A stretch of 64,000 nucleotides of DNA. Source: Phyllobates terribilis (taxonomy: Eukaryota). The stretch spans positions 6,014,001 through 6,078,000 of the forward strand of contig NW_027362846.1 in the NCBI RefSeq assembly GCF_046119375.1, in the 5' to 3' direction. Positions 5,111-61,319 of the stretch are shown one piece after another. The position numbers were made by a program, and so were the translations under genes. The notes beneath the pieces are model-generated. The model did not search any database and was not told where the DNA came from. It saw nothing but the letters and a program-made list of their open reading frames with translations. How positions within the stretch are numbered: position 1 is the first letter of the stretch; the number at the start of each line of letters is the position of its first letter.

Positions 5111-5274
5111 GCTGTCACGCAGAAGTTATCTATTCTGAGGTTAAGACTGCTAAAGACCTTTTGGTGACATCACGGTCATGTGACCATAATGTCACCCAAG
5201 GTCCTTTAACTGCAGGAGTCTAGGAACTGAAGAGGAGCCAGGCTGGTATGTACCGTATGTGCTGTATGTGTGTA

Positions 5275-6703
5275 CAGTGGGGAAAATAAGTATTTGATAC
5301 ATTTCCGATTTTGCAGGTTTTCCAACCTCCAAAGAATGGAGAGGTCTGTAATTTTTATCGTAGGTCACTTCATCTGTGAGAGACAGAATCTAAAAATAAA
5401 ATCCAGAAAATCACATTGTAGGATTTTTACATAATTAATTAGCATTTTATTGTATGAAATAAGTATTTGATACAATAGAAAGCAGAACTTAATATTTGGC
5501 CCAGAAACCTTTGTTACAATTACAGAGCTCAGACGTTTCCTGTAGATCTTGACCAGGTTTGCACACACCGCAGCAGGGATTTTGGCCCCCTCCTCCATAC
5601 GGATCTTTTCCAGATCTTTCAGGTTTCGGGGCTGTCGCTGAGCAACATTGAATTTCAGCTCCCTCCAAAGATTTTCTATTGGATTCAGGTCTGGAGACTG
5701 GTTAGGCCACTCCAGGACCTTGAAATGCTTCTTACGGAGCCACTCCTTAGTTGCCCAGGTATGTGTTTCGGGTCATTGTCATGCAGAAAGAGGAGGGAAG
5801 GAGGTTTTTGGCCAAAATCTCCCCATCCATCCTCCCTTCAATACAGTTCAGTCGTGCTGTCCCCTTTGCGGAAGAGTACCCCCAAAGTATGGTGTTTCCC
5901 CCACCATACATCCCGGTTGGGACGGTGTTCTTGGGGTTGTACTCGTCCTTCTTCTTCCAAACATGGCGAGTGGAGTTGATACCAAATAGTTCTATTTTGG
6001 TCTCATCTGACCACATGACCTTCTCCCATGCCTCCTCTGGATCATCCATACGGTCATTTGTGAACTTCAAACAGGCCTGAACATGTGCTGACGTGACCAG
6101 GGGGATCTTGGGTGCCCTGCAGGATTTTAATTTTAATCCATGACGGCGTAGTGTGTCACTAACAGTAATGTTTGAGACTGTGGTCCCAGCTCTCTTCAGG
6201 TCATTGACCAGATCCTCCCATGTAGTTCTGGGCTGATTACTGACCTCTCTCAGAATAATACTTACTCCATGAGGTGAGTCCCAGACCAAGGAAGATTGAG
6301 GTCATCTTGTGTTTCTTCCATTTTCTAATAATTGTGCCAAAAAATGTTGCCTTCTCACCAAGCTGCTTGCCTATTGTCCTGTAGCCCAACCCAACCTTGT
6401 GCAGTTCTACAATTTTGTCCCTGGTGTCCTTGCACAACTCTTAGGTCTTGGCCATGGAGGAGAGGTTGGAGTATGATTGAGTGTGCGGACAGGCGTCTTT
6501 TATACAGATAACGAGTTCAAACAGGTGTAATTAATACAGGTAATGAATGCAGAGTAGGAGGGCTTCTTAAACCAAAAAAAACAGCAGAATTCTTTCTGGT
6601 TGGTAGGTGATCAAATACTTATATCATGCAATAAAATGCAAATTAATTATGCAAAAATCGTACAATGGGATTTTCTGTTTTTTATTTTTAGATTCTGTCT
6701 CTA
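5275..6703 (-). mobile_element. Tc1-like DNA transposon, degenerate, one TIR truncated
   Basis: TA|CAGTGGGGAAAATAAGTATTTGA terminus at 5275. Transposase fragments on the - strand ([12 protein letters not shown]-type N-terminus, [19 protein letters not shown]). Partial inverted TIR at ~6605-6703. Confidence 0.92.
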
Positions 6704-7009
6704 CCATTTTATGAGCTGCCTTGAATAATAACCAAGCTTATTCTATGGAAAAGTCTTATTTGTACAAGTACCCTGTGAATTGTAAAGTGCTGCCAAATAT
6801 AAAAGTACTTATTATACATATAGTTGCATTAAAAATTATTCACCTTCCTTTCCAAATTCCGTTTATTTCCAAAATTTACAAACGTTTTGCTGTTTGCAAT
6901 AAACTAATAAAACAAGAACAATATAAAAAGCTCAACACAACTAATATAACATGTGGTTTCTCTAAATTCACCACAAAATTGGACGTTTAATGATTCCTGC
7001 CATCCAAGA

Positions 7010-10000
7010 ATGATTCCATCCCTTCATGAGCTGCATCTTGAGTACTTAGTAGAACCCTTTCCCTGCTACATTCAGAAACCCTGCTAACCTCATTAATATT
7101 CCTTGCATGCCTTCTGTCTCTTTCAATTGTGCCCTTTGAAATGTGCAGTCAGCATGTAATAAACTCTCCTACATCCATGACTTTTTCCTCTCAATTCCCT
7201 CAACCTTCTGGTTCTCACTGAAACATGGATCCCAGCAGTTGGATACTGTCACGCTGTCTCTGTATACTGGAGGTAGGGGGCCTAAGCTGACCCTAAGCTG
7301 GGGCCCTGACTAATCCCTCAACCTGGAGGTACTGTTAAAGGTACAGAGGTCCAGGCCGCCAGCGTAACCCCTACCTCCTGAGGATCCCTGCACCTAAGTA
7401 ATCTAGTCCTGAGAAGGACCCCGATCACAACAAAAGGGGACAAGTAATAATATGCCCACACACAGTACTTAGACGAACGAGACAGTACAAGGGAAAAACC
7501 AAAACCACCTTGCATACAAAAACTACACAACTACAACAGAGGGAACACCAACGGGAAAGGAGATAAATGATAAAGCGAGGAAGGGAAAAAACACTCCAAA
7601 TACACTTATCTCTGAAACTCCAAATACCACGATCCGCTCTGTTAGTCTGCATGAAATGCTTTCACCGACACTTCCCTAACAGACCAGCAGGCATTTGAAG
7701 GAGTCTCACTACAGCAGCATTGATTGCAGCTGGGCGAGGCTGGACCTCGTCTAGCACAGAGAGAGAGAGAATTAACTCCCTCACTGCCGAAAAACACAAA
7801 GTACCAAAAAGTCAGCTGCGAGAAGTCAGGCTGTGTAATCGTGACGATCTTCGTGGCGACACACCCGTGACAGATACCACGGCCGCTGCTGCTCTCTCTC
7901 ATATGGTGACCTACACTTTTCTCATACCCCGAGAACTGACAACAGATCAGGCGGAGGTGTTGGTCTGCTCCTTTCAACAAAATGTACTTTTCCCCCCCAG
8001 TACCCTCCCTTATCTTCCCTTTTTTTGAGGTCCAGACTGTCAGACTCTACCGGCCTTTCTCCCTGCGAGTGGCGGTTGTTTATCACCCCACCGGGCACCT
8101 CCAGTCAGTTTCTGGATCACTTTTCCACTTGGCTTCCAAATTTTCTATCTTGCGACATCTCCACTCTCATCGTGGGGGACTTTAACATCCCAATTGTCGA
8201 TCCCCTTTCCCCATCTGTCGCTCATCTTTTATCGCTAACATTCTCCTTCGGCCTTTCACAACTTACTAATTCTCCTACACATGAAGACGGGAACACACTG
8301 GACCTGATCTTCTCCCGGCTATGCTCAGTACATGACTTTACTAACTCTCCTCTTCCGCCCTCTGACCACAACCTTCTTTCGTTCTCTGTCAAGAACTGTA
8401 ACCCTACTCATGACACCCCCACTTTCCACACTTATAGAAATATACATGCCATTAACACCCAGAGATTTATGAAAACGTTGCAATCATCATTGGCCCCAAT
8501 CTCCTCCCTCTCATGTCCTGACCCTGCACTGATGCACTATAACGAAATATTGCAATGCGCCCTGAATGAAGCCGCACCTCTTACACATAGAACAACTCGG
8601 CACAGACGGCGACAACCCTGGCACATGCCGCAAACACGTTTTCTCCAGCGGTGCTCCAGGTGTGCCGAACAGCTGTGGAGAATATCTAATCTGGCCAAAG
8701 ATTTCATCCAGTCTAAATTTATGCTTAAAACATATAACTCTGCCCTTCACCTCTCCAAACAAACCTACTTTAACAACTTCATCATCTTACTGTCCAATAA
8801 TCCTGAACACCTCTATGACACTTTTCATTCTCTCCTTAATCAAACAGCACAGGCCCCGACCACCGACCTCAGCACTGACAATCTGGCCAACTATTTCAAA
8901 GAAAAATTTGACCATATCCGATAGGAAATTTTCTCCTAATCCCCAAATGTTATGCATGCTCCTCCCTCCAACATTGGTATGAAGTCAGAAAATGAGCAAG
9001 ATGCAGTCATGGAAAAAGAAGTGACCAGGCTCCTTGCATCTTCTCGCCCTACCACCTGCACCAGTAACCCTATTCCCTCACATCTCCTTCAGTCCCTTTC
9101 TCCAGCTGTCACCACTCACCTACCTAAAATATTCAACCTCTCCCTCTCATCTGGTATTTTTCCCCTCCTCTTTTAAACATGCCAGCATACATCCGTTACA
9201 TAAAAAACTATCCCTTGACCAGAACTGCGCTGCTAACTACAGACCAGTTGCCAATGTTCCCTTTATCTCTAAACTCCTGGAATGCCTGGTCCACTCCCGT
9301 CTAATCCGCTATCTCTCAGACAACTCTCTTCTTGACCCTTACCATTCTGGTTTCCGCTCTTTAGACTCTACTGAAACTGCACTCCCTAAAGTCTCTAATG
9401 ATCTACTAACAGCTAAATCTAATGGTCACTACTCCCTGCTGATTCTCCTGGATCTCTCTGCAGCATTCGACACTGTGGATCACCAGCTCCTGCTCCCTAT
9501 GCTCCGCTCTATTGGCCTCAAGGACACTGTTCTCTCCTGGTTCTCCTCCTATCTCTCTGACCGCTCCTTCTCTGTGTCATTCGCGGGCTCCTCTTCCTCT
9601 CCCCTTCCCCTTACTGTCGCGGTTCCTCAAGGATCAGTCATAGGCCCCCTTCTTTTCTCTCTATACACTGCTCCTATTGGACAAACAATCAGCAGATTTG
9701 AGTTTCAGTACCATCTCTATGCTGATGACACCCAATTATACACCTCTTCTCTGGACATCACCCCTGCATTACTACAAAAGACCAGTGATTGTCTTTCTGC
9801 TGTCTCTAACACTATGTCCTCCCTCTATCTAAAACTGAATCTGGCAAAAACTGAACTCCTCGTATTTCCTCCCTCCACTAACCTACCTGTGCCCGATATT
9901 GCCATTTCCGTTTGTGGCTCTACCATTACTCCCAGCAACATGCCCGCTGTCTTGGGGTCATATTTGATTCAGATTTTTTCCTCTCTCCTCACATCAAATC

Positions 10001-10490
10001 ACTCGTTCGTTCATGTCATCTACACCTCAAAAACATCTCTAGACTCAGGACTTTTCTTACCTTTGACTCGGCAAAAACTCTTACTGTAGCTATTATTCAT
10101 TCTCGCCTGGACTACTGCAACTCTTTACTAATCGGTCTCCCTCTTTCTAAACTCTCCCCTCTCCAATCCGTCCTGAATGCAGCAGCCAGGATCATATTCC
10201 TCACCAACTGCTACACCGATGCCTCTTCCCTGTGCCAGTCATTGCACTGGTTGCCCATCCAATACAGAATTCAATATAAACCTATCACGCTTACTCACAA
10301 AGTGCTCCATGCTTCAGCACCGCCCTACATCTCCTCCCTCGTCGCAGTCTACCACCCTACCCGGGCCCTCCGTTCTGCCAATGACTTTAAACTAAAATCC
10401 TCCATAATCCGAACTTCCCACTCTCGTCTCCAAGGTTTCTCATGTGCTGCGCCAATTCTTTGGAATGCACTACCCAGGACAATTCGAAGC
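7010..10490 (+). mobile_element. L2-clade LINE ORF2 (APE endonuclease + RT), frameshifted, interrupted by a solo LTR
   Basis: TETW, GGGVG, GDFN, GNTLDLIF, SDHNLL (endonuclease); [38 protein letters not shown] (RT); SRLDYCNSLL...LHWLP C-terminus. Confidence 0.93.
7247..7872. mobile_element. Solo LTR (626 bp) with 5-bp TSD GATAC
   Basis: TGTCACG...CGTGACA termini; GATAC at 7242-7246 and 7873-7877; absent from the paralogous site near 61570. Confidence 0.92.
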
Positions 10491-11252
10491 AGGATTTTGC
10501 CAACTCCCTTCTCAGATTCACAGATTTTCCATTCTCTTGAAAATTAATTTGATTCCTCCCCGAGTCTCCCATCCAATGGTACTAGATTTCACCTCTGCGA
10601 AGCATCAGTAATAAAAGTTACAATCTTAGCTATGACTACTTTCTGTTCTTGTATATGTTCTTGTCTCCTCTTGACGTACCATCCTACTCAAGTGAATGAG
10701 AGAACCATTACTATGAGAGAGAGTTCCACTGAGCAGCTGATTCACTTAACCCTAATCAACATCTTCAATGGATATCGCGCTATTCGCAAGGATTTTATGA
10801 ACAAGTTTATTTGACCTGTACAGGCATTCGCACAATTTCTCCCTCTACATTTCCGCCCTCTGTCAGTCACTGCAATGGAGCTGAGTTGCAGTGGCCGCAA
10901 AGAATAAGCTGAGCTGCAGTGGCCGCAAAAGTGGCTGAGCTTAAGTAGCTGGTGTTATATAGATTGTAAAAAAAAAGACTCCGGTCCATCGAATTCAACC
11001 TTCCTCCACCAGTTATACATTCTCTATCACTAGATTATGTAAAACCCACAATGCCATTTGTTGTGATAAAAATATTCAGCCATTTTTTAAAAACTGTTCT
11101 AGTGTCTGCCATTACTACCTCTTGTGATCGGCATTCCACAGTCTCACTGCTCTAACTGTAAAGAACCCTTTCCTATTTAGCTGCCGGAATCTCCTTTACC
11201 CCAAACGTAATGAGTACCCCTGGTTCTTGGAAGGAATAAGTCATGGGCAAGT

Positions 11253-12043
11253 TGTAGAGCCTGCGTCTCAACCTCCTGCCCCTCTCCCGCGGCAGAGACG
11301 CCGACCGCCTTACAGCCACGGCCGCCGGCTAGAGTGTCCCACTCCTCCGTCCTCCTTACACACTGACACTGCCCGGGGTACACGCACAGCTAACAGATCC
11401 CCGAGTACTGTGCTTGTGAGGGGGGGGGCACGCCATTCTGAAGTGTCCCTGGCCAATGGTTGGATTACACTAAAAGGACAACATCTGCAAGGAGTTTGTG
11501 TGGGTTTCCTCCGGGTTCTCCTATTTCCTCCCACACTCCAAAAGACATAATGATAGGGAATGTAGATTGTGAGCCCCAATGGGGACAGTGCCCATAATGT
11601 CTGTAAAGCGCTGTGGAATTAATGGCGCTATGTAAGTGAGTAAAATAAATAAATAAAATAAACTACTTAAGGCACCTCCTCCAACTCGGAGGTGCCTGTG
11701 CAACGTTGTAAATTTGTTTGCTAAACACTCTTGTTAGTTCTCAGGTCCCAGTGCATGTATCTCCATTTACCTGCCTGTCCGTCAGCCTGTCTACCAGCCG
11801 TGCCCGCCTGCCAGTCTACCAGCCATGCCCGCCTGTTCCTGCCTCCTGTCCCTTGGGGGTCAGTTGCTATCTTCCCGAGGTCAGACCCGGATTAGCACCT
11901 GGTCCACCTTCCTTGTCCCTCCTTGGGTCATGGAGTAGTGAAACCGCTGTACATCCGAAGTCTGATTTGGTGAGGTCCATAGGTTATGCCCCGAGTCTCT
12001 CCTTGCACCACGGCACTGTGGTTCCACCACCCATCCCGTTACA
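11253..12043. mobile_element. Solo LTR with 5-bp TSD CAAGT
   Basis: TGTAG...GTTACA termini; CAAGT at 11248-11252 and 12044-12048. Confidence 0.85.
11471..11663 (+). mobile_element. 5'-truncated V-SINE-like element with L2-type tail
   Basis: V-domain-like core gtgggtttcctccgggttctcctatttcctcccacactccaaaagaca; tail gtaaagcgctgtggaattaatggcgctat; A-rich end. Confidence 0.8.
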
Positions 12044-12782
12044 CAAGTCCTTTGTATTGATCTCACATGTATTTATACATATAAGTGAGATCTCCTCTGA
12101 GGTTTCATTTTTGTAAGCTAAAAAAGCCCTACTTTTCCAACCTCTCATCATATGAGAGGCCTCCGTCCCTTGTAATAATCTAGCTGCCGCCTTTGAACTG
12201 ACTCTGTTTTAAAATGTGAAGCCCAAAACTGGATCCCACATTCTAGATGTGGCCTCACAAGTTATTTGTAGTGACTACTACAGATTAAATGCAGCTATAC
12301 TTTGCAGCTTTGCTCTTAGTGTTTCTAACCTGCAGACACCAGAACAAATAACAGTTGATTACGGGGTTGTTAGATGTTGGACCCTACCGATCTCCTATGG
12401 ATGACCGATCCAATGAATCAGTATTCTGTGACCAAACAACCACTTTAATCATCTGTACTCCCCACCATGCTGAGTCTTCACAAGTTGATTCACAAGCTTG
12501 TGTATAACGGTGATGAACATCATCTGAGCTTGCCCATCATCTGAAGCCTCAGTTTTACGCCACTGGATACAACTCTGGTAGACTCCATACTAAATAAGGA
12601 AGGAGTCACTGACTGTGGTGGCCCCTCCCCGGGCCGTGGCGATTGGTGACCCCCCTTCGCTGCCCCTTACTGACCAGTGATCCTGAAGTCCCCGGAAGGG
12701 TCCAATAGAGCGGAAGGGATGGCTGCTACAAGCCGTCCCATGGATACATAAACACCGGGACATCCCACCTTCCTCCCTTTCT

Positions 12783-15512
12783 TTGTTGGTCCCGGAGTCG
12801 AACATCGATATGGACAATCCTGGATCAGGTCAGATTGCTGAGGCCCTCCAGGCTGGGTTTGCACAGGGGGGCGAGCGCTGGTTACAGGCCCTAATGTCTG
12901 GGCTCAGCGCTCATCCTCCTGGCCCCAGCTTTAAATCCCCGATCACCCTGCTCCAGGCCCTCAACCTCTCATGGGACTATCTTGCTCCCCAGACCCAGTC
13001 CCCTCTCCCCTTGGGCCCACTCACCCACTCCAGCAGGAGGAATTACCCACAGTTTGCCGATTCCCACACCTGGGACTTGGGGCTTCATTCCTGTCCCCCG
13101 TTCTCGCCTGGCCACTGTAGCCACACAGCGGCAGAGGTCTCAGGTGGCTGCGCGCCCCGGCGCTGGGGAGCTGGCGGCCGTTTTGAAGCGTCGTGCGCGC
13201 GCTGGTGCCGGGGAGCGGGCGGCCGCGTCGGTCCGACGGGCGCATGCCGGCGGGGGCGCTCAGCTGCGGCGGTGCGACGGGCACTGTTCGGCGAGGTGCT
13301 GGGGGGTTTTGCGCCGCGGTCACGCGCAGGAACTGGGGAGCGGGCGCGCGACTCCTCTGGCCCGGATATGCTTCCTGGGGGAGGCGTGACTAGAGAGCCT
13401 GTAGCGCATCACGTGACTCGGCAGGCCGCGCCCCCCAGTCCAGGATGCTGCGGGGCAGAGGAGGAGGCTGCTCCTCATGCGGCGGCGGGCCCTGCGCCTC
13501 ACTCACAGCGGGCGCAGGGCTCCGCTGCACTAATACCTGAAGGTGTGCTGTCTGCAGGGTCTGCGGCGGGCGCAGAGCGGATTCAGGGCTCCTGCCCGCC
13601 GCCAGCTCTGGAGACAGCACAGAGCCCATTGTTCCCCACCCCCAAGACCACTCCTGTCCCACATCCCGCCGAGGAGCGCCCTGGAGAGCAGAGGTCCAGC
13701 CGGCACTCCCGCCCTCCAGAGCGCTTTAGGCACAGCACCTCGCAGCCTCACAGAAAAAGCTGCTGGCCAGATATTACACAGTCCTCACCCCCTCAGCACA
13801 CAGCAGGGGCTGTGGCAGAGCAGAGCCCCAGACAGGAATCCTCTGCCGGGGGCTGTGCTCTGCCTCCCCCCCAAACACTCCCCCGCAGAAACCCCTCTAA
13901 TAAAAATAACAGAAAAAGTTCCCAAAACAGAACACATGACATTACACAACCAGGGGACATAGCGGCCCCTGTAATCACCGCAGCCCATCTATCGCCCATT
14001 CCCGGTATCAATACCCCCCTAATGGACACTACGCGCAGCTTAAACGCTTCAGCGCCCATCCTCGCCTCCTCCATGTACCCCTATAATAGCGCAGCGACGC
14101 ACGCGCCTGACACCGCTATAGCATCGCAGCGCCCATTTGATCATTTATCAGTTAATGTTCCCCTGACCCCCTCCAGCTGGCCACAAATAGCACCAGCATG
14201 TCCCGGCGGGACGCTTGTAAATGGCGCAGAACCCCCCATACACCCTCAGGCACAGAGAGACTCCAGGCATACTCGCTCCAGGCGAACTCGCTGTAGTTCC
14301 TCCTCCGACAGATCTACGCCATCGCACACAAGTCACCGGCGAAGGAAGCGGTCGTATCAAACAAAGCGGAGATCGGCATCCCACAGGAGGGGTCGCAGGT
14401 CAAGGTCCTCAAGGTGGCGCTCACCATCCTCCATTTCAGAGATGTCGAGCGCATCGTCAAGCCCCTATAGCCGCCTGCTCCGATCCCGTCCTCCGTGGGA
14501 CAGAAATAGTACAATGGCACCCTCCAGAGCTTACAGCCTGCACGATGCATCGATTTCACGCAGGTCTACGAGCAGAGGCACGCCGCTCACCCCTCTCGAG
14601 TCTGGTGCCGGAGTTCCTCCACACATCGGAGTCCCTCCTCCAGCCGCAGGAATTGGTGAGTGCAATATGATGATAACTGAAATGGGAAATAGTAACAGCA
14701 ACTTAATAGCGGCCCTTAAGGCCCTGGTCGAACAACTATCCGCGCCACCCGGCGCAATACATAATTCTACGAAAACAACTCCACCATTAGCCAGTATACA
14801 CAAGGACGCATTCTTTTGCGGGATTAGCCCACTAGGTTCACACATAGACGAGGAAACAAGAATTAAAATTTGGAATAATGACTACATCGACATTTGGTCA
14901 CTAGTATCCACGGACCAACATACTATAGACAAAGAGAGAAGGATAGATGACAGACCATTCGACAGAAACAGGCAAAGGGTCGCAAAGACAATGAGTAACT
15001 GGTTACATGTGTTCTCAGTGCTGGGTTGTATAATGGGCCAAAAGCATCCGGAACGCTGCTCGGAACTATTCATACACCAGGATACAGTGTATAACTCGTA
15101 CAAAGCCCACGGCGGTTCAGCGTGGTGGCGCTACGATGAAGAGTTCCGGAGGCGGTTGGCCCTGCAACCACAGCTGGGCTGGGGGGTAAAAGCTACAGAC
15201 GTATGGTTGCGACTAATGCTGTCACAGAAACACCATCCCTTTCCAACTACGACTACTGGACAACCGGCAACAGCAGGCCAAAATTCAGTGGTCGTACGTA
15301 GACCAGGGGCCTGCTGGAAGTACAACGAGGGACATTGTCGCTTTTACGCCTTATCCAGATACAAGCATGAATGCTCAGCCTGCGGAGGAGCCCACCCTGC
15401 AGCGAGATGTTCTCGCCCCGCAAGCAAATTATCAATTAAACTCCCACAGTCAGAATCCAAGGACCCCGGTGAGCGTAAACGCGATGGGCCCCTGGCTAGA
15501 CCAATATCCTAA
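12783..15512 (+). CDS. Ngaro Gag-like ORF1
   Basis: 909-aa open frame (first ATG ~12810); Arg/Ser-rich middle; IWNNDYIDIWSL, WWRYDEEFRRR; C-terminal CWKYNEGHC...HECSACGGAHPAARC zinc finger. Confidence 0.82.
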   Translation: MLVPESNIDMDNPGSGQIAEALQAGFAQGGERWLQALMSGLSAHPPGPSFKSPITLLQALNLSWDYLAPQTQSPLPLGPLTHSSRRNYPQFADSHTWDLGLHSCPPFSPGHCSHTAAEVSGGCAPRRWGAGGRFEASCARWCRGAGGRVGPTGACRRGRSAAAVRRALFGEVLGGFAPRSRAGTGERARDSSGPDMLPGGGVTREPVAHHVTRQAAPPSPGCCGAEEEAAPHAAAGPAPHSQRAQGSAALIPEGVLSAGSAAGAERIQGSCPPPALETAQSPLFPTPKTTPVPHPAEERPGEQRSSRHSRPPERFRHSTSQPHRKSCWPDITQSSPPQHTAGAVAEQSPRQESSAGGCALPPPQTLPRRNPSNKNNRKSSQNRTHDITQPGDIAAPVITAAHLSPIPGINTPLMDTTRSLNASAPILASSMYPYNSAATHAPDTAIASQRPFDHLSVNVPLTPSSWPQIAPACPGGTLVNGAEPPIHPQAQRDSRHTRSRRTRCSSSSDRSTPSHTSHRRRKRSYQTKRRSASHRRGRRSRSSRWRSPSSISEMSSASSSPYSRLLRSRPPWDRNSTMAPSRAYSLHDASISRRSTSRGTPLTPLESGAGVPPHIGVPPPAAGIGECNMMITEMGNSNSNLIAALKALVEQLSAPPGAIHNSTKTTPPLASIHKDAFFCGISPLGSHIDEETRIKIWNNDYIDIWSLVSTDQHTIDKERRIDDRPFDRNRQRVAKTMSNWLHVFSVLGCIMGQKHPERCSELFIHQDTVYNSYKAHGGSAWWRYDEEFRRRLALQPQLGWGVKATDVWLRLMLSQKHHPFPTTTTGQPATAGQNSVVVRRPGACWKYNEGHCRFYALSRYKHECSACGGAHPAARCSRPASKLSIKLPQSESKDPGERKRDGPLARPIS

Positions 15513-17045
15513 GAAAGACGCGGCGGGGCAGTTACGTTTTGGTTTCACATACGGTTTTTTCATCCCCTTCAAACTTAATAAAATGTCCACCTTTGCAAAT
15601 AACCTTAAATCTGCAAGAGAGCACCCCGAAATACTTAGGAAAAAAATACAAAAAGAAGTAGCCCTAGGCAGAATAGCGGGCCCCTTCCCAACACCACCAT
15701 TCAGTAATCTAAGAGTTTCCCCTCTGGGATTAATCCCCAAAAAAGAGGCTCATTACGTCTAATCCATCATTTATCTTACCCGAAAGGAGAGTCTATAAAT
15801 GACGGTATTTCGTCTGAAGACGCCTCGGTCTCCTACGCGTCGTTCGACAGAGCAGTAATGTTAGTACGCGATGCGGGGCCCGGAGCGCTGCTCGCTAAAT
15901 CCGACATAGAATCCGCCTTTCGCCTACTTCCGGTGCACCCAGATTGCTACCACCTGTTAGGATGCCAAGTGGACAACGACTACTTCTACGACACTTGCCT
16001 CCCAATGGGTTGTTCAATATCTTGCTATTACTTCGAGTTATTCAGTTCCATCCTGGAATGGGTGCTGAGGTATGAAACCGGCAATAGGTCCATCACACAT
16101 TACCTAGATGACTTCCTATTCGTCGGACCCAAAGACTCAAATCAATGCCAATCACTACTGAACTAATTCACAAACATCTCGTGAAGGTTCGGAGTCCCTT
16201 TATGCCCAACAAAAACCATAGGCCCCACAACAAAGCTTTCGTTCTTAGGCATCGAAATCGACACAACGGAAAGGTTGTTCCACCTCCCAACAGAAAAAAT
16301 TCAAAAAACGCTGCACCTCATCGAGGGATTTTGCGCGGTACGGAAAGTAACACTACAACAGATGCAAGTGTTACTAGGCCTCCTCGTGTTCGCGAGCCGG
16401 GTGATGCCAGTTGGAAGGGTTTTTTCTCGTCGCTTATCCCTCGCAACAAAACGTGCATTAAAACCGAGTCATAGAATCAGAATCACCAGGCAGCTTCGGG
16501 CGGACTTAGAGGTGTGGAAAACCTTCTTACAATCATTCAACTGGCACATGTTATTTATGTCAGAGGAGCAGTCCAACATTGAATTAAGATTATTCACCGG
16601 GACGGCAGAATCAGGCGGATATGCAGCGATACTAGAAAACCAATGGAGCACAGGCTTATGGCCTCCGTATTGGTCTGAACAAGGGTTTAGAAGTAACCAC
16701 ACACTACTAGAACTCTTCTCAATAGTGGTAACAATAGAAATATGGAGTACGCACCTGGCGAACAAAAATATACGCTTCATAACAAGAAACACCAGCCTAG
16801 CGCACTTCATTATTAATATGGCATCATCGTCTCTCCCAGTGCTAGGCCTACTACACCGGCTAGCATTCCTGTGCCTAAAACACAATGTATGGGTCCGCGC
16901 TAGCCACGATGCTGAGGGGTCTAACGCTGCTGCTAACGCTTTATCACAATTCAATTGGCAGGTTTTCAGAGAGCTCCTCCCCAACGCACATCCGTCGGGC
17001 ACCACTTGCCCCCAATCCCTCTGGGATTTAGTGGCGAACAGCTGA
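15367..17045 (+). pseudogene. Ngaro RT / RNase H (frameshifted)
   Basis: GRIAGPF, SPLGLIPKK, KSDIESAFRLLP, LPMGCSIS, YLDDFLFVG; RNase H-like LFTGTAES, LLELFSIVV, NAAANALS. Overlaps the 3' end of gag in another frame. Confidence 0.88.
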
Positions 17046-17932
17046 TGCCATTAATAAGAGCGTCAGTTGCCCCGTCGATGTGGCAAGCATACGGTAAGGC
17101 ATGGGAAGAGTGGACACGACTAGTAGCATGCAGACGGGTTGACCAATGTGAACAAGCCAGATCACAAGTCACCATAGAATTTCTCCACCAGTTAGTGATG
17201 AGGGGCATATCAGGGGCGTCAGCGCAGCGGAGTCTGACCGGAGTAGCATTTCACTTTCAACTACTGAATTGGGGAGATGTGACAAAGAGATTCATCATTA
17301 GACAATCCATAAAAGGGTGGAAAAGGGGTCAGCCAAGTCAGGAGTGTAGACGTCCCGTCCCGTGTCACTAAAACTGATTTCTCACATCATATCCCTAACA
17401 CCATTAACATGACACTCACAATTTGAAGCAACACTACTGTCTACTGCAATTGCGATCGCCTTCTTCGGGGCGCTACGCATAAACGAATTAGTCCTTCAAT
17501 CCAAAATCACCACCAGTGGAGGCTTATTACACCAGGACGTAGTCATAGCCAATAATGCAATATGCATACGCATGCGCAAATCCAAAACGGACCCAGCGGG
17601 CAGGGGCACTTGGGTACTTCTACAACCCACAAACGGTACGCTGAGTCGGGTAACAATAGTAAAAAACATATACAGCCATCAGGCCACAAAGTAATTTCTT
17701 CCTATCACACATTGACGGAACTCCATTATCAAGATACCAGTTCCAATCTATATTTAATAAATGCCTAACATCAGCAGGGAACCACCCCAAAGATTACGGG
17801 ACACACTCATTTCGCATAGGCGCAGCCACGGATGCAGCAAGAGCAGGACTGTCAGAAACGGAAGTGCAGAGGATAGGGAGATGGCAATCCGCGTGTTTTG
17901 CGAGATACATAAGACCGGACTTGTTGTCCTAA
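17040..17932 (+). pseudogene. Tyrosine recombinase (frameshift and stops)
   Basis: Catalytic set readable: FFGALRINE (R), RKSKTD (K), GTHSFRIGAAT (HxxR), GRW, ARYIRP (Y); stop at 17930-17932. Confidence 0.9.
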
Positions 17933-17953
17933 CGTCATTTGTTTCTTTTACAG

Positions 17954-18580
17954 GTCACACAAAGCCAACAGTTTGGGTGATAGGCCATTCGTATATATAC
18001 TGGGCAGAAAAAAGGGCGAGTCCGCCCAGGCGGGAGGAATATGGGGTTTCATAACACATATTTCAACTGGAGAGGTATTAGAGGCCTGCTATGGCCACAG
18101 GTGCTAATGGAGGTGATCGAGATAGGGAGAGAAGCGACAGGTCCGGTCATATTAGTGATACATGCCGGGGGAAACGACCTAGGTCATCACAAGAGCGCAG
18201 AACTAATGGCAATAATGAAGCTAGACACTGAGCGCTTCAAATAATTTTTTAGAAAACTAACGATAGTATGGTCTGAGATGGTGCCGAGAGCGGTATGGTG
18301 AGGTGCGCGAGACATCACGGCCATCGAACGGACAAGGCGGGTAATAAATATTCGGATGGCAAAATTTGTAAAAGAAAGAGGTGGTGTAGTGATAAGACAC
18401 CGACAACTGGAAGGAGATAAAGCAGGCCTCATACGGCCCGACGGTGTTCACTTAACAGATATTGGACTGGACATATTCCTGTCAGGACTCCAGGACGGAG
18501 TGGAACAAGCGTTAAGAGTGATGGATGGGGGTCAGAGTCCTGCATACGAGTACGCTGGATCCTCTGTGGCCTGGAAATAG
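17954..18580 (+). pseudogene. SGNH/GDSL hydrolase ORF of the Ngaro element (no own ATG; frameshift and stops)
   Basis: Blocks VWVIGHSY (Ser), GIRG (Gly), HAGGND (Asn), PDGVHL (DxxH). Confidence 0.85.
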
Positions 18581-19338
18581 AAAGGACATGTTGGAGAGTT
18601 ACACTTGTTGGCCAACTTGCCGGTGTGGAGACACAGGGCATGCTGCAACAAGCCGAATTATTGTGGAATAAAATGCCTTTCTAATGGAATGAGTATAAAG
18701 AATTAATAAAGCTGTGACCGATCCTCACCCATCCAGTTGTAAGAGTTACATTATTGTATTGTTAAAGGGGGGAGAGCGGTAGGGGGGCTGAGCGTCGGGG
18801 TTTGGTTTGGGGTCCTCACAGTCTCCATATTCACCCCAGTTCTTTTGACACAGAGGTAACTTGAACATTCTTCAGTCTTGTAGCCATTGTGCAGGTTTGA
18901 GTCCTCTATCGGGGTCATTTCAGGAACCACTAAAGCTTATCTGAAGGTTTTATTATGGGGGGTATATGGTACAAGAAAATAAACTGGGACTCTATTGTTT
19001 AACCCCTTCTTGTGATGTGCATTACCAGATAAAGACAGTTTGGCAAAGTACACTGCTCAAAAAAATAAAGGGAACACTTAACACAATGTAACTTCAAGTC
19101 AATAACACTTCTGTGAAATCTACCTGTCCAGTTATGAAGCGACTGATTGTGAATCAATTTCTCCTGCTGTTGTGCAAATGGAACAGACAACCGGTAGAAA
19201 TGATCGGCAATTAGCTAGATAAAGGAGCAGTTCTGCAGGTGGTGACCACAGACCATTTCTCTGTTCTCATCCTTTTTAGATGTTGTTTTGATCACTTTTT
19301 CATTTTGCCATTGCTCTCACCTCTAGAGGTACAGTAGC

Positions 19339-20350
19339 ATGAGACGGTGTCTACAGTACAACCCACAGAAGTTGCTCAGGTAGTGCAGTTCATCCAGGAT
19401 GGCACATCAGTTCTAGCTGTGGAAAGAAGGTTAGCTGTGTCTGTCAGCACAGTGTCCAGATCATGGAGCAGATACCAGGAGATGTGGAGGGAGCCATAGG
19501 AGGGCAACAACCCAGGAGCAGGACCACTACCTCCTCCTTTGTGCAAGGAGGAACAGGAGGAGCACTGCCAGAGCTCTGCAAAATGACCTCCAGCAGGCCA
19601 TAAATGTGCATGTGTCTGCACAAACGGTTAGAAACCGACTCCATGAGCGTGGTATGAGGGCCCGACGTCCACAGATGGAGGTTGTGCTCACAGCCCAACA
19701 CCGTGCAGGACGCTTGACATTTGCCACAGAACACCAGGATTGGCAAAGTCGCCACTGGCGCCCTGTGCTCTTCACAGATGAAAGCAGGTTCACACTGAGC
19801 ACATGTGACAGACGTGACAGAGTCTGGAGACGCCGTGGAGAGCAATCTGCTGCCTGCAACATCCTTCAGCATGACCGGTCTGGCAGTGGGTCAGTAATGG
19901 TGTGGGGTGGCATTTCTTTGGAGGGCCGCACAGCCCTCCATGTGCTCACCAGAGGTAGCCTGACTGCCATTAGGTACCGAGATGAGATCCTCAGACCCCT
20001 TGTGAGACCATATGCTGGTGCGGTTGGCCCTGGGTTCCTCCTAATGCAGGACAATGCCAGACCTCATGTGGCTGGAGTGTGTCAGGAGTTCCTGCAAGAT
20101 GAAGGCATTGAAGCTATGGACTGGCCCGCCCGTTCCCCAGACCTGAATCCGATTGAGCACATCTGGGATATCATGTCTCGCTCCATCCACCAACGTCACG
20201 TTGCACCACAGACTGTCCAGGAGTTGGCGGATGCTTTAGTCCAGGTCTGGGAGGAGATCCCACAGGAGACCATCCGCAACCTCATCAGGAGCATGCCCAG
20301 GCATTGTAGGGAGGTCATACAGGCACGTGGAGGCCACACACAATACTCAG
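19339..20350 (+). pseudogene. Tc1 transposase (N-terminus frameshifted, catalytic domain open 19606 onward)
   Basis: ATG at 19339; ORF 19606..20451 carries the DDE domain and runs into the tandem array. Confidence 0.85.
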
Positions 20351-21208
20351 CCTCATCAGGAGCATGCCTAGGCGTTGCAGGGAGGTCATACAGGCACGTA
20401 GAGGCCACACACAATACTCAGCCTCATCAGGAGCATGCCCAGGCGTTGTAGGGAGGTCATACAGGCACGTGGAGGCCACACACAATGCTCAGCCTCATCA
20501 GGAGCATGCCCAGGCATTGTAGGGAGGTCATACGGGCACGTGGAGGCCACACACAATACTGAGCCTCATCAGTAGCATGCCCAGGCATTGTAGGGAGGTC
20601 ATACAGGCACGTAGAGGCCACACACAATACTCAGCCTCATCAGGAGCATGCCCAGGCGTTGTAGGGAGGTCATACAGGCACGTGGAGGCCACACACAATA
20701 CTCAGCCTCATCAGGAGCATGCCTAGGCGTTGTAGGGAGGTCATACAGGCACGTGGAGGCCACACACAATACTCAGCCTCATCAGGAGCATGCCCAGGCG
20801 TTGTAGGGAGGTCATACAGGCACGTGGAGGCCACACACAATACTCAGCCTCATCAGGAGCATGCCCAGACGTTGTAGGGAGGTCATACAGGCACGTGGAG
20901 GCCACACACAATACTCAGCCTCATCAGGAGCATGCCCAGGCGTTGTAGGGAGGTCATACAGGCACGTGGAGGCCACACATAATACTCAGCCTCATCAGGA
21001 GCATGCCCAGGCGTTGTAGGGAGGTCATTCAGACACGTGGAGGCCACACACAATACTCAGCCTCATCAGGAGCATGCCCAGGCGTTGTAGGGAGGTCATA
21101 CAGGCACGTAGAGGCCACACACAATACTCAGCCTCATCAGGAGCATGCCTAGGCGTTGTAGGGAGGTCATACAGGCACGTGGAGGCCACACACAATACTC
21201 AGCCTCAT
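20280..21208. repeat. 71-bp tandem array, 13 units, inside the Tc1 element
   Basis: cctcatcagg recurs at 20280, 20351, 20422, 20493 and so on; terminal cctcat at 21203; (21203-20280)/71=13. Confidence 0.95.
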
Positions 21209-22029
21209 TGTGACTTGTTTTAAGAACATTACATCACAGTTGGATCGGCCTGTAGTGAGTTTTTCCACTTTAATTTTGGGGGTGACTCCAAATCCAGGCC
21301 TCCATTGGTTAATAAATGTGATTTCCATTGATGATTTTTGTGTGATTTTGTTGTCAGCACATTCAACTTTGTACAGAACAAAGTGTTCAATGAGAAGATT
21401 TTATTCATTCAGATCTAGGATGGGTTACTTGAGTGTTCCCTTTATTTTTTTGAGCAGTGTATATAATCCTGAGAACATAAGGCAGGGATGTCAAGCTCCA
21501 ACACACAGAGGGTCAAAATGAAAAACTTGGACAAAGTCACGGGTCAACCAATATACAGTATGATGGGTCCCACCTAGTCCTCCATAGAAATAATAGCCCC
21601 ACATGGGGTTGGCATGTCAGAGTGAGGAGACTTATAAGCCATGCATGCTCCTCTGGGAAATTGTGGAGCTAGAGCTCTAGTCCTCTTCCTCTCTGAAGAG
21701 GCTGCTTTACAAAAGTAATTGATAAGTAACACCAGAACTTTCCTGGCACAGTCAAAAGTGTTTAATCCACGAAAGTGTGTAAAATGACCAGACCGCGCTC
21801 CTAAAGTTAACTTACACCCAGCTCACTTCAAGAGGTTGCACTAAATTGCGGAGGAGCCATCATCAAAATGATTGGGGCGACAATAGACTACCGTAAGTGC
21901 GTTGTGCATCATTTGATGATACAGGGGCAAGTAAACAGAAGACCCGACCAGAAGCGCACTAATGCTTAAGAAACAAGCATTCCTTACATGTATTAAAGCT
22001 GTCAAACAGTCGCAAATCATGCACACGGG

Positions 22030-59195: not shown

Positions 59196-59619
59196 ATAAT
59201 TATTTTTAGTATGTTGGAAATTTTTACCCACACAACTTCATAGTATTCAAACTGCTCACATGGGGAAATAATCATTTTTATTTTTTTAAACGTACTTATT
59301 TGACAGATCATACAAAAAATACAATAGTTACCAGCATATGCCAAAAAGGTTCTTTAACTGCAGGAGTCTAGAGGAACTGAAGAGGAGACAGGCTGGTATG
59401 CAGGGCTGGTATTGGAGGGAAGGGGGAGGGCAAACTGGGCAATTTCTCAAGGCTCTCACTCTTTTAGGGGCCCTCAGTATTTCTAGTCTGAGGTTAAGAC
59501 TGCTAAAGACCTTTGGTGACATCACGGTCATTTTACCATAATGTCACCAAAGGTCCTTTAACAGCAGGAGTCTATAGGAACTGAAGAGGAGATTGGCTGG
59601 AATGTGCTGTATGTGTGTA

Positions 59620-61043
59620 CCATGGGGAAAATAAGTATTTGATACATTTCCGATTTTGCAAGTTTTCCCACCTACAATGCATGGAGAGGTCTATAATTTT
59701 TATCGTAGGTCACTTCATCTGTGAGAGACAGAATCTAAAAATAAAAACCAGAAAATCACATTGTATGATGTTTACATAATTAATTTGCCTTTTACTGCAT
59801 GAAATAAGTATTTGATACAATAGAAAGCAGAACTTAATGTTTGGTCCAGAAACCTTTGTTACAATTACAGAGGTCAGACGTTTCCTGTAGATCTTGACCA
59901 AGTTTGCACACACTGAAGCTAGGATTTTGGCCCACTCCTCCATACAGATCTTCTCCAGATCTTTCAGGTTTTGGGGCTGTCGGTGGGCAACATTGAGTTT
60001 CAGCTCCCTCCAAAGATTTTCTATTGGATTCAGGTCTGGAGACTGGATAGGCCACTCCAGGACCTTGAAATGCTTCTTACGGAGCCACTCCTTAGTTGCC
60101 CTGGCTATGTGTTTCATGTCATCATGCAGAAAGAGGAGGGAAGGAGGTTTTTGGCCAAAATTTCACAATACATGACCCCATCCATCGTCCCTTCAATACA
60201 GTGCAGTCGTGCTGTCCACTTTGCAGAAGAGTACCCCCAAAGTATGGTGTTTCCCCCACCATACTTCCCGGTTGGGACGGTGTTCTTGGGGTTGTACTCG
60301 TCCTTCTTCCTCCAAACATGGCGAGTGGAGTTGATACCAAAAAGTTCTATTTTGGTCTCATCTGACCACATGACCTTCTCCCATGCCTCCTCTGGATCAT
60401 CCATACGGTCATTTGTGAACTTCAAACAGGCCTGAACATGTGCTGACGTGACCAGGGGGATCTTGGGTGCCCTGCAGGATTTTAATTTTAATCCATGACG
60501 GCGTAGTGTGTTACTAACGGTAATGTTTGAGACTGTGGTCCCAACTCTCTTCAGGTCATTGACCAGATCCTCCCGTGTATTTCTGCGCTGATTACTGACC
60601 TCTCTCAGAATAATACTTACTCCACGAGGTGAGTCCCAGACCGAGGAAGATTGAGGTCATCTTGTGTTTCTTCCATTTTCTAATAATTGTGCCAAAAATT
60701 GTTGCCTTCTCACCAAGCTGCTTGCCTATTGTCCTGTAGCCCAATCCAGCCTTGTGCAGTTCTACAATTTTGTCCCTGGTGTCCTTACACAACTCTTTGG
60801 TCTTGGCCATGGAGGAGAGGTTGGAGTATGATTGAGTGGACAGGCGTCTTTTATACAGGTAACGAGTTCAAACAGGTGTAATTAATACAGGTAATGAATG
60901 CACAGTAGGAGGGCTTCTTAAACCAAAAAAACAGCAGAATTCTTTCTGGTTGGTAGGTGATCAAATACTTATATCATGCAAATTAATTATGCAAAAATCA
61001 TACAATGGGATTTTCTGTTTTTTATTTTTAGATTCTGTCTCTA
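59620..61043 (-). mobile_element. Tc1-like transposon, paralog of 5275-6703
   Basis: [38 protein letters not shown]; same right-end truncation. Confidence 0.92.
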
Positions 61044-61319
61044 CCATTTTATGAGCTGCCTTGAATAATAACCAAGCTTATTCTATGGAAAAGTCTTATT
61101 TGTACAAGTACCCTGTGAATTGTAAAGTGCTGCCAAATATAAAAGTAATTATTATACATATAGTTGCAATAAAAATTATTCAACTTCCTTTCCAAATTCC
61201 GTTTATTTCCAAAATTTACAAACGTTTTAATAAACTAATGAAACAAGAACAATATAAAAAGCTCAACACAACTAATATAACATGTGGTTTCTCTAAATTC
61301 ACCACAAAATTGCACGTTT

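What the first reader, a model, noticed from the sequence alone, without database searches (positions are those of the whole stretch)
14655..18580. Ngaro retrotransposon appears to express its SGNH hydrolase as a spliced Gag-hydrolase fusion
Seen: the SGNH ORF (GHSY / GIRG / GGND / DGVH) has no ATG but begins exactly at a strong acceptor, tttgtttcttttacAG|GT CAC (17953/17954). A consensus donor ATT G|GTGAGT lies in gag at 14655/14656. 14655 is the first base of a gag codon, so joining gives GGT CAC ACA AAG in frame. The splice would remove the capsid/zinc-finger part of Gag, RT, RNase H and the recombinase. Known: hydrolase ORFs occur in some vertebrate Ngaro elements, and SGNH esterases occur in some LINE ORF1 proteins. 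Inference: a subgenomic spliced mRNA, like retroviral env, yields an Arg/Ser-rich Gag-N plus lipid-esterase protein. This copy itself carries frameshifts and stops.
Basis: partly seen in the sequence, partly recalled or inferred. Interest (0 to 1): 0.8.

Follow-up and report, generated by a model that had tools for sequence, protein, structure and literature searches.

The report
Frog retrotransposon splices like a retrovirus
A frog jumping gene of the Ngaro type carries conserved splice sites, and public sequencing contigs that are probably RNA skip exactly between them, so it likely makes its recombinase and a lipase-like enzyme of unknown role, one form of it fused to the front part of Gag, by alternative splicing as complex retroviruses do.

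Summary
The splice is real, but it is one of a set. The donor (14655/6) and acceptor (17953/4) are present and in phase. Contigs from 2 of 4 runs (one study, RNA status guessed) join them exactly. The same data show two more phase-1 joins: 12828>16962 (Gag leader to recombinase) and 17093>17954 (recombinase start to hydrolase). No fetched locus carries these joins as DNA. Three diverged Ngaro families in this genome keep the acceptor, a 132-nt recombinase exon and, in two of them, the mid-Gag donor. Frog gene models show the same isoforms. The SGNH fold is confirmed on an unbroken copy. This window copy is broken and not shown to be transcribed. I found no paper describing this splicing in 10 searches, but could not read the main review. 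Unchecked scan notes report splicing in other, non-frog Ngaro elements. New variant of a known kind; function inferred only.

The parts
12574..12806 (+). Split direct repeat A1 (5' end of element)
   Evidence: Recurs after B1 as A2 in copies L033, L034, L035, L043
12810..15512 (+). gag ORF, 900 codons: short N-terminal helical motif, Pro/Ala-rich linker, Arg/Ser block, conserved C-terminal part with zinc-finger-like Cys/His motif
   Evidence: Open frame 12687-15512; ATG at 12810; N-terminal motif matches a profile of frog SGNH-fusion N-termini, E 6e-7; no Pfam hit
12826..12834 (+). 5' splice donor CAG|GTCAGA (12828/12829), phase 1 after 6 gag codons
   Evidence: GT..AG joint to 16962 in X1 and X3, and to 14312 in X4; GT kept in 45 of 48 distinct copies
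14250..14489 (+). Arg/Ser-rich block of Gag (29% Arg, 33% Ser)
14653..14661 (+). Mid-gag splice donor TTG|GTGAGT (14655/14656), phase 1
   Evidence: GT..AG joint to 17954 in X2 and X3; GT kept in 48 of 50 copies; phase-1 G|GTRAGT at the homologous place in families B and D
15217..17045 (+). RT/RNase H ORF, broken in this copy (pieces 15217-15762, 15708-16166, 16185-17045)
   Evidence: RVT_1 E 1e-6, just under the Pfam cut-off; RNase H identity recalled from motifs, not tested
16962..17093 (+). 132-nt symmetric (phase 1-1) exon at the start of the recombinase frame, containing the conserved Met at 17045; acceptor 16961/2, donor ACG|GTAAGG 17093/4
   Evidence: Joints 12828>16962 and 17093>17954; 132 nt in families B, C and D; 44-residue insert between Bufo isoforms P0099 and P0100
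16962..17932 (+). Tyrosine recombinase, broken in this copy
   Evidence: Phage_integrase PF00589 E 3.5e-7, above cut-off, on the last piece
17881..17883 (+). In-frame ATG upstream of the hydrolase, formed by the recombinase Arg-Trp codons; family-specific
   Evidence: out of frame in 15 of 15 copies of families B, C, D
17929..17953 (+). Branch-point-like CTAAC (its TAA is the recombinase stop), pyrimidine tract and acceptor AG
   Evidence: AG kept in 56 of 57 copies; homologous phase-1 acceptor in 14 of 15 copies of three other families
17954..18580 (+). SGNH hydrolase exon; broken here by a frameshift and two stops
   Evidence: Unbroken 208-codon frame in copies L031, L032, L034, L036, L038; Lipase_GDSL_2 E 2.7e-4, below cut-off; model pLDDT 92, SGNH/GDSL fold hits TM about 0.7
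18568..18824 (+). Split direct repeat B1; this copy ends here, without A2-B2
   Evidence: Recurs as B2 in L033, L034, L035

Best explanation
This is a broken copy of a frog Ngaro retrotransposon whose family has three phase-1 splice donors and two phase-1 acceptors, joined exactly in contigs that are probably RNA, so it likely expresses its downstream genes by alternative splicing. Unspliced RNA would give Gag and the genome copy (inferred). Splicing 12828>16962 puts the recombinase in frame behind six Gag codons (join shown, protein inferred). A further splice 17093>17954 would give a short hydrolase led by the recombinase's first residues (join shown; about 214 residues if it starts at the conserved Met at 17045). 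The most likely role of the fusion, by analogy with the ZfL2-1 ORF1 protein (coiled coil, Arg-rich motif, lipid-binding esterase), is to tie the element's RNA particle to membranes (inferred, about 0.4). How RT/RNase H is translated remains unexplained.
For: (1): of 15 joints shown (18 in all), 3 are labelled GT..AG: 14655>17954 (X2, X3), 12828>16962 (X1, X3), 12828>14312 (X4). Two more rows resolve to 17093>17954 (X1, X4) once the letters between the sides are placed. (2) The X1 contig across 12828>16962 has 19 gap letters near 12707-12731, and the 17093>17954 contigs lack 8 letters near 17066. Copy L035 alone among the 159 loci then held has both marks, and its DNA still holds the skipped stretches. 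(3) None of 19 distinct internal joins in 210 loci with family DNA matches a splice junction. (4) Families B, C and D (72-77% DNA identity to each other over the hydrolase, no blastn hit to the window there) keep the phase-1 acceptor 20 nt before the Trp codon in 14 of 15 copies, the 132-nt exon in 12 of 13 copies with both ends found, and G|GTAAG in those 13. Background: only 12 of 115 fourfold codons are identical across the four families and none of 13 conserved Gln is CAG in all four. (5) The mid-gag donor recurs in phase 1 in 4 of 6 family D copies and in 1 of 2 family B copies with gag. (6) Database gene models: of 156 homologues, 14 have an Arg/Ser-rich N-terminus directly on the hydrolase, 15 have it with the recombinase exon between, and 32 have that exon without an Arg/Ser block, by a crude pattern. 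Same-locus isoform pairs differ by just that exon in Bufo (44 residues) and Rhinoderma (45). (7) No ATG, readthrough or frame relation into the hydrolase is shared by the families.
Against: The runs are one study, assembled contigs, and RNA only by guess; they cannot give levels or link the joints into one molecule. The 14655>17954 join was seen in 2 of 4 runs, and its source copy is unknown. The copy behind P0097 (L034) has lost 16159-17016, including the recombinase acceptor, and its Gag frame stops after 275 codons, so this join may be favoured by a damaged copy. The copy behind the other joins (L035) lacks the mid-gag donor. No 14655>16962 join was among the rows shown. Within the family the sites are kept no better than neighbouring columns (median column share 0.96-0.98). 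The single family C copy and one of two family B copies lack the mid-gag donor consensus, and 2 of 5 family D copies read CGG instead of CAG at the recombinase acceptor. Gene models are predictions whose RNA support I did not see; many of the 37 in the 'no exon, no Arg/Ser' class join the hydrolase to odd points in RT, RNase H or recombinase. The window copy's own letters are absent from contigs at many positions, so it is not shown to be transcribed. No protein or enzyme data exist here.
Confidence: 0.8

Rival explanations
1. The hydrolase is mainly made as the short recombinase-leader form; the mid-gag donor serves to feed the recombinase exon, and the direct Gag-hydrolase join is a by-product, mostly from damaged copies.
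For: L034, the copy with the annotated direct join, lacks the recombinase acceptor. Many models include the 132-nt exon (47 of 156), and several are 212-224-residue proteins that start at or just before the recombinase Met.
Against: Same-locus isoform pairs with and without the exon (P0099/P0100, P0135/P0136; P0191/P0193). In the second hydrolase clade most long models join a full Gag N-terminus directly to the hydrolase.
Confidence: 0.3
2. The hydrolase is translated without splicing, from the ATG at 17881, by an internal promoter or by re-initiation near the recombinase end.
For: The ATG is in frame and open in 50 of 56 family copies, with purines at -3 and G at +4.
Against: It is a by-product of the recombinase Arg-Trp codons and is out of frame in 15 of 15 copies of three other families. 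There the frame is closed by the recombinase stop 13 codons before block I. Spliced joints into 17954 are seen.
Confidence: 0.07
3. The joints are cryptic splicing of decayed copies caught in host read-through transcripts, with no role for the element.
For: The source copies traced are damaged (L035, L034). Some contigs run past the element's 5' end (loose ends at 12576). Host genes capture the hydrolase exon (TRIM models).
Against: All productive sites share phase 1, the exon length is 132 nt in four families whose synonymous sites are largely diverged, and a non-coding acceptor with a branch-like motif is kept at the same distance. That pattern needs selection in active lineages.
Confidence: 0.08
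4. The runs are DNA and the joints are pre-existing deletion derivatives or retrotransposed spliced copies.
For: RNA status is a guess; the family has recurrent internal deletions; only a sample of several hundred to thousands of copies was read.
Against: None of 19 DNA joins matches; L035 keeps the skipped DNA while contigs with its private indels lack it. Even retrotransposed spliced copies would show that splicing occurs.
Confidence: 0.05

Closest known systems
Amphibian Ngaro-like elements, Xenopus DIRS-53_XT and DIRS-54_XT (10.1101/2021.08.05.455354, passages read)
   Same: gag, RT/RH, recombinase, then an SGNH ORF 'with no proven function'; split direct repeats A1...B1-A2-B2.
   Different: That paper describes four overlapping ORFs and has 0 occurrences of 'splic' or 'intron'; here the recombinase and hydrolase are reached by conserved splices.
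Esterase-containing ORF1 protein of the zebrafish LINE ZfL2-1 (PMC3905857, passages and section 13 read; PDB 4c1b)
   Same: SGNH domain (profile hit E 3.8e-4; fold hit) preceded by a helical N-terminus and an Arg-rich stretch, the layout the Gag-N/hydrolase fusion would have.
   Different: There it is one unspliced ORF1 in a non-LTR element, with dimerisation, esterase activity and liposome binding shown. Here the layout would be built by splicing, and none of these properties is tested.
Spliced ORF3/env of LTR retrotransposons, including GDSL ORF3 of rotifer Vesta elements (PMC5408684, passages read)
   Same: An extra 3' ORF, there too sometimes a GDSL/SGNH esterase; the paper says ORF3s are typically expressed from spliced messages.
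   Different: Those are integrase LTR elements. Here the integrating enzyme itself is on a spliced RNA, and there are three donors and two acceptors.
Complex retroviruses such as HTLV-1, with singly spliced env and doubly spliced tax/rex whose middle exon carries the env start codon (recalled, no call)
   Same: A middle exon that holds the start codon of one gene and is reused, by a second splice, for the 3' gene.
   Different: No homology, no envelope glycoprotein and no known export regulator; a resemblance of logic only.

Membership tests
Ngaro-like YR retrotransposon | Split direct repeats A1...B1-A2-B2 | tested here: met
   Complete in family copies L033, L034, L035 and L201; the window copy has only A1 and B1
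Ngaro-like YR retrotransposon | gag, RT/RNase H and tyrosine recombinase in that order, overlapping | tested here: met
   RVT_1 (29.1 bits, cut-off 29.6) and Phage_integrase (30.6, cut-off 27.1); gag has no Pfam hit and is assigned by position and Cys/His motif
Ngaro-like YR retrotransposon | No methyltransferase after RNase H; SGNH ORF after the recombinase in amphibians | tested here: met
   No methyltransferase hit on the pol pieces (weak test on a broken frame); SGNH after YR
Ngaro-like YR retrotransposon | RT groups with Ngaro in a phylogeny | not tested
   No reference RT set was fetched
SGNH/GDSL hydrolase | SGNH alpha/beta fold | tested here: met
   Model of unbroken copy L034, pLDDT 92, pTM 0.88; best Foldseek hits are GDSL/SGNH esterases, E 3e-8, TM 0.72
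SGNH/GDSL hydrolase | Catalytic blocks I (Ser), II (Gly), III (Asn), V (Asp-x-x-His) | tested here: met
   G73 N74 D75, D163 G164 H166 invariant in 51 sequences; among 195 homologues with block I, Ser in 191, G.ND in 183, D-x-x-H in 170; triad geometry not measured
SGNH/GDSL hydrolase | Esterase or lipase activity | not testable with these tools
   Needs an enzyme assay
U2-type spliceosomal intron | GT...AG ends, pyrimidine tract, branch-like motif, precise removal in RNA | tested here: met
   the RNA nature of the runs is a guess, supported by the L035 comparison
Retroviral env | Signal peptide, transmembrane fusion glycoprotein | tested here: not met
   The product is a globular SGNH fold; only the spliced mode of expression is env-like

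The most novel reading that the evidence does not exclude
Frog Ngaro elements run a conserved, complex-retrovirus-like splicing programme that makes the recombinase and several hydrolase isoforms from one RNA, and the Gag-N/SGNH isoform rebuilds by splicing the same helix, Arg-rich, esterase layout that LINE ORF1 proteins evolved separately: a membrane-targeting accessory protein for the element's RNA particle.
Probability: 0.4. Interest if true: 0.8.

Novelty: new variant of a known kind. Interest (0 to 1): 0.66.

Why it matters
How tyrosine-recombinase retrotransposons translate their overlapping downstream genes, and what the amphibian hydrolase does, is not explained in the papers I could read. 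The result gives exact, conserved junctions and defined protein isoforms that can be tested by RT-PCR, long reads and enzyme assays. It also explains a large set of 'uncharacterized' or 'serine/arginine repetitive matrix protein-like' frog gene models as transposon splice products, and shows why this exon is easily captured by host genes.

Tried and rejected
A phase-1 acceptor for RT at 15358/9: present in this family but the AG is absent in 9 of 9 copies of families B, C, D, and no joint was seen; rejected as a conserved site. Readthrough or frameshift from recombinase into hydrolase: the frames differ between families and family D has two stops in a row; rejected. Within-family conservation as evidence of selection: no better than background; not used. 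Many top 3'-end hits are parts of another composite repeat and are not independent elements. Depth is higher over the hydrolase than over gag or RT, but contigs cannot rank genes; not used. No listed holder is on record as RNA. Single-letter variants proved private to the window copy and did not identify source copies. A search with P0002 returned mostly the window's own family, and one with P0124 added nothing. A loose end at 17093 in X2 and X3 leads to sequence not found in the 99 loci then held. No genome-wide search for the joined forms was made, so a rare pre-spliced DNA copy is not excluded. Literature: 10 searches found no paper on splicing of Ngaro elements; Poulter and Butler 2015 is not held and Goodwin and Poulter 2004 was not looked up, so either may mention it. 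No supplementary files were read.
Full report
Element. The finding lies in a 6.25-kb Ngaro-type retrotransposon at 12574-18824 in a 10.6-Gb genome. It has repeat A1 (12574-12806), a 900-codon gag from ATG 12810, a broken RT/RNase H, a broken recombinase ending at 17932, a broken hydrolase (17954-18580) and repeat B1 (18568-18824). Copies L033, L034 and L035 have the full B1-A2-B2 end; the window copy stops after B1. The first look found 3489 candidates for the 3' end and 589 for gag. Homologous proteins are labelled by their sources as from frogs, and one that is identical to the L034 hydrolase as from Phyllobates terribilis.

Observation. The donor at 14655/6 and the acceptor at 17953/4 are as described and both are phase 1. 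The claim that the hydrolase has no ATG is wrong: the frame is open upstream of the acceptor with an ATG at 17881, kept in 50 of 56 distinct family copies. This ATG is spelled by the recombinase's Arg-Trp codons, and in 15 of 15 copies of three other families the equivalent ATG is out of frame.

RNA evidence. Four runs from one study, held as contigs and RNA only by guess, were laid on 12500-18900. Of 18 joints, 15 were shown. The predicted 14655>17954 join is a GT..AG joint in X2 and X3. Also GT..AG: 12828>16962 in X1 and X3, and 12828>14312 in X4. Two rows in X1 and X4 resolve to 17093>17954 when the intervening letters are placed on the copies. The other ten rows are not GT..AG and look like deletions in individual copies. 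The 12828, 14655 and 17093 donors and the 16962 and 17954 acceptors are all phase 1; 14312 is not, and would shift the frame. Contigs for two of the joins carry indels found together only in copy L035 among 159 loci, and L035's DNA still contains the skipped parts. Among 210 loci with family DNA, none of 19 internal joins matches a splice junction. I read the joints as splices. Contigs give no levels and do not link joints into one molecule. The window copy's private letters are missing from the contigs at many places, so this copy is not shown to be transcribed.

Conservation. Within the family the sites are kept (GT or AG in 45/48, 48/50, 53/53, 53/54, 56/57 copies) but no better than background. 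The informative test is across families. Searches with database homologues found three more families, B (8 copies read), C (1) and D (6), at 72-77% DNA identity to each other over the hydrolase and without a blastn hit to the window there. The hydrolase acceptor, with pyrimidine tract and a branch-like motif 20-28 nt upstream, lies 20 nt before the Trp codon in phase 1 in 14 of 15 copies. The recombinase exon is 132 nt in 12 of the 13 copies where both ends were found, all with G|GTAAG; two D copies have CGG for CAG at its acceptor, one B copy has lost the donor and one D copy lacks the region. Across one copy per family only 12 of 115 fourfold codons are identical, 2 of 34 conserved Gly are GGT in all, and 2 of 17 conserved Lys are AAG in all; with a B copy that keeps the site, the donor's Gly-Lys reads GGT AAG in all four. 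The families are related, so this is not a probability. The mid-gag donor recurs in phase 1 just before the conserved Gag domain in 4 of 6 D copies and 1 of 2 B copies; the C copy reads A|GTGAGT. In family D the 5' donors lie just before the gag ATG (2 copies read), so there the recombinase would start at its own conserved Met. A candidate RT acceptor at 15358 is not conserved.

Gene models in other frogs. Same-locus isoforms differ by the exon alone in Bufo (44 residues) and Rhinoderma (45). In a second hydrolase clade (Rana, Bufo, Hyla, Hyperolius and others) most long models are a Gag N-terminus joined directly to the hydrolase; a profile of 32 such N-termini hits residues 11-40 of the window Gag (E 6e-7) and family D Gag. 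These are predictions; I did not see their RNA support, and some clearly join odd upstream exons. A caveat on the fusion itself: L034 has lost the recombinase acceptor and its Gag frame is broken.

Hydrolase. The unbroken 208-residue domain of L034 folds with pLDDT 92 and matches GDSL/SGNH esterases (Foldseek E 3e-8, TM 0.72) and the ZfL2-1 ORF1 esterase (profile E 3.8e-4). Catalytic blocks are conserved. Activity and substrate are unknown.

Mechanism. Shown: sites, phases, joints in probable RNA, conservation across families. Inferred: unspliced RNA gives Gag and the genome; one splice gives the recombinase; a second gives a short hydrolase; the mid-gag donor gives Gag-N/hydrolase forms with or without the 44-residue exon. 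Speculative: the fusion would bind RNA by its Arg/Ser block and membranes by its esterase, as proposed for ZfL2-1 ORF1p, where a coiled coil and an Arg-rich motif precede a liposome-binding esterase (PMC3905857). RT translation is unexplained.

What is known. The amphibian Ngaro hydrolase is described as without proven function, with no mention of splicing (10.1101/2021.08.05.455354, passages). PMC6681497, PMC7192593, PMC3783388, PMC9341512, PMC3212892, PMC13465315 and PMC12477816 (passages only) do not describe it in the passages seen. Spliced ORF3s, some of them GDSL esterases, are known in LTR elements (PMC5408684, passages). Ten searches found no report for Ngaro; the main review was not available. 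Unchecked notes of this scan report phase-matched splice sites or introns in Ngaro elements of other genomes, one stating that no RNA data were available; I saw them after forming my reading and did not test them.

Verdict. Observation partly confirmed, interpretation partly supported and extended. New variant of a known kind. Interest 0.66.

Noticed in passing
proteins P0106, P0116, P0145, P0147: Gene models of a TRIM gene ('nuclear factor 7-like') end in the Ngaro hydrolase exon in two dendrobatids and two Bufo species, at the same host exon boundary. The bufonid and dendrobatid hydrolases fall in different clades, which suggests repeated capture; the bufonid ones lack the catalytic His. Predictions only.
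   Followed up: partly
L040, L042, L044-L067 (window 16616 or 16716 to 18824): A very abundant composite repeat carries only the 3' part of this element (recombinase and hydrolase) between about 110-bp tandem arrays, with shared flanking blocks.
   Followed up: partly
L038, L058, L059; L032, L037, L039: Recurrent internal deletions 12671>16156 and about 12783>15056 shared by several loci, i.e. amplified non-autonomous derivatives.
   Followed up: partly
window 11200-19000; L068, L069: The element and its flanks are present three times at about 100% identity (C86 twice, C136): segmental duplication or unmerged haplotypes.
   Followed up: no
window 18824: This copy and many others end at B1 without A2-B2; L034 has A2-B2 twice in tandem.
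   Followed up: no
window 12828>14312: A GT..AG joint in run X4 enters an alternative gag frame (open 14221-14670) that would put the hydrolase out of frame; the acceptor AG is kept in all 12 copies where it mapped. Role unknown.
   Followed up: partly
window 15358-15370: RT frame has a Met spelled by the zinc-finger His-Glu codons in this family and family D; how RT is translated is open.
   Followed up: partly
window 19049-21461: Element with 33-bp terminal inverted repeats, a transposase-like frame at 19435-20451 (Tc1-like by recalled motifs) and a 71-bp tandem array inside its 3' part.
   Followed up: no
window 7845-10547 (+): Broken endonuclease and RT frames of a LINE-like element (type recalled, not tested); 5129-8780 is repeated at 59482-64000 at about 93%.
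   Followed up: no
protein P0156: An Alligator gene model fuses a UEV/LDH-like gene to a distant SGNH domain that lacks the block V Asp and His.
   Followed up: no
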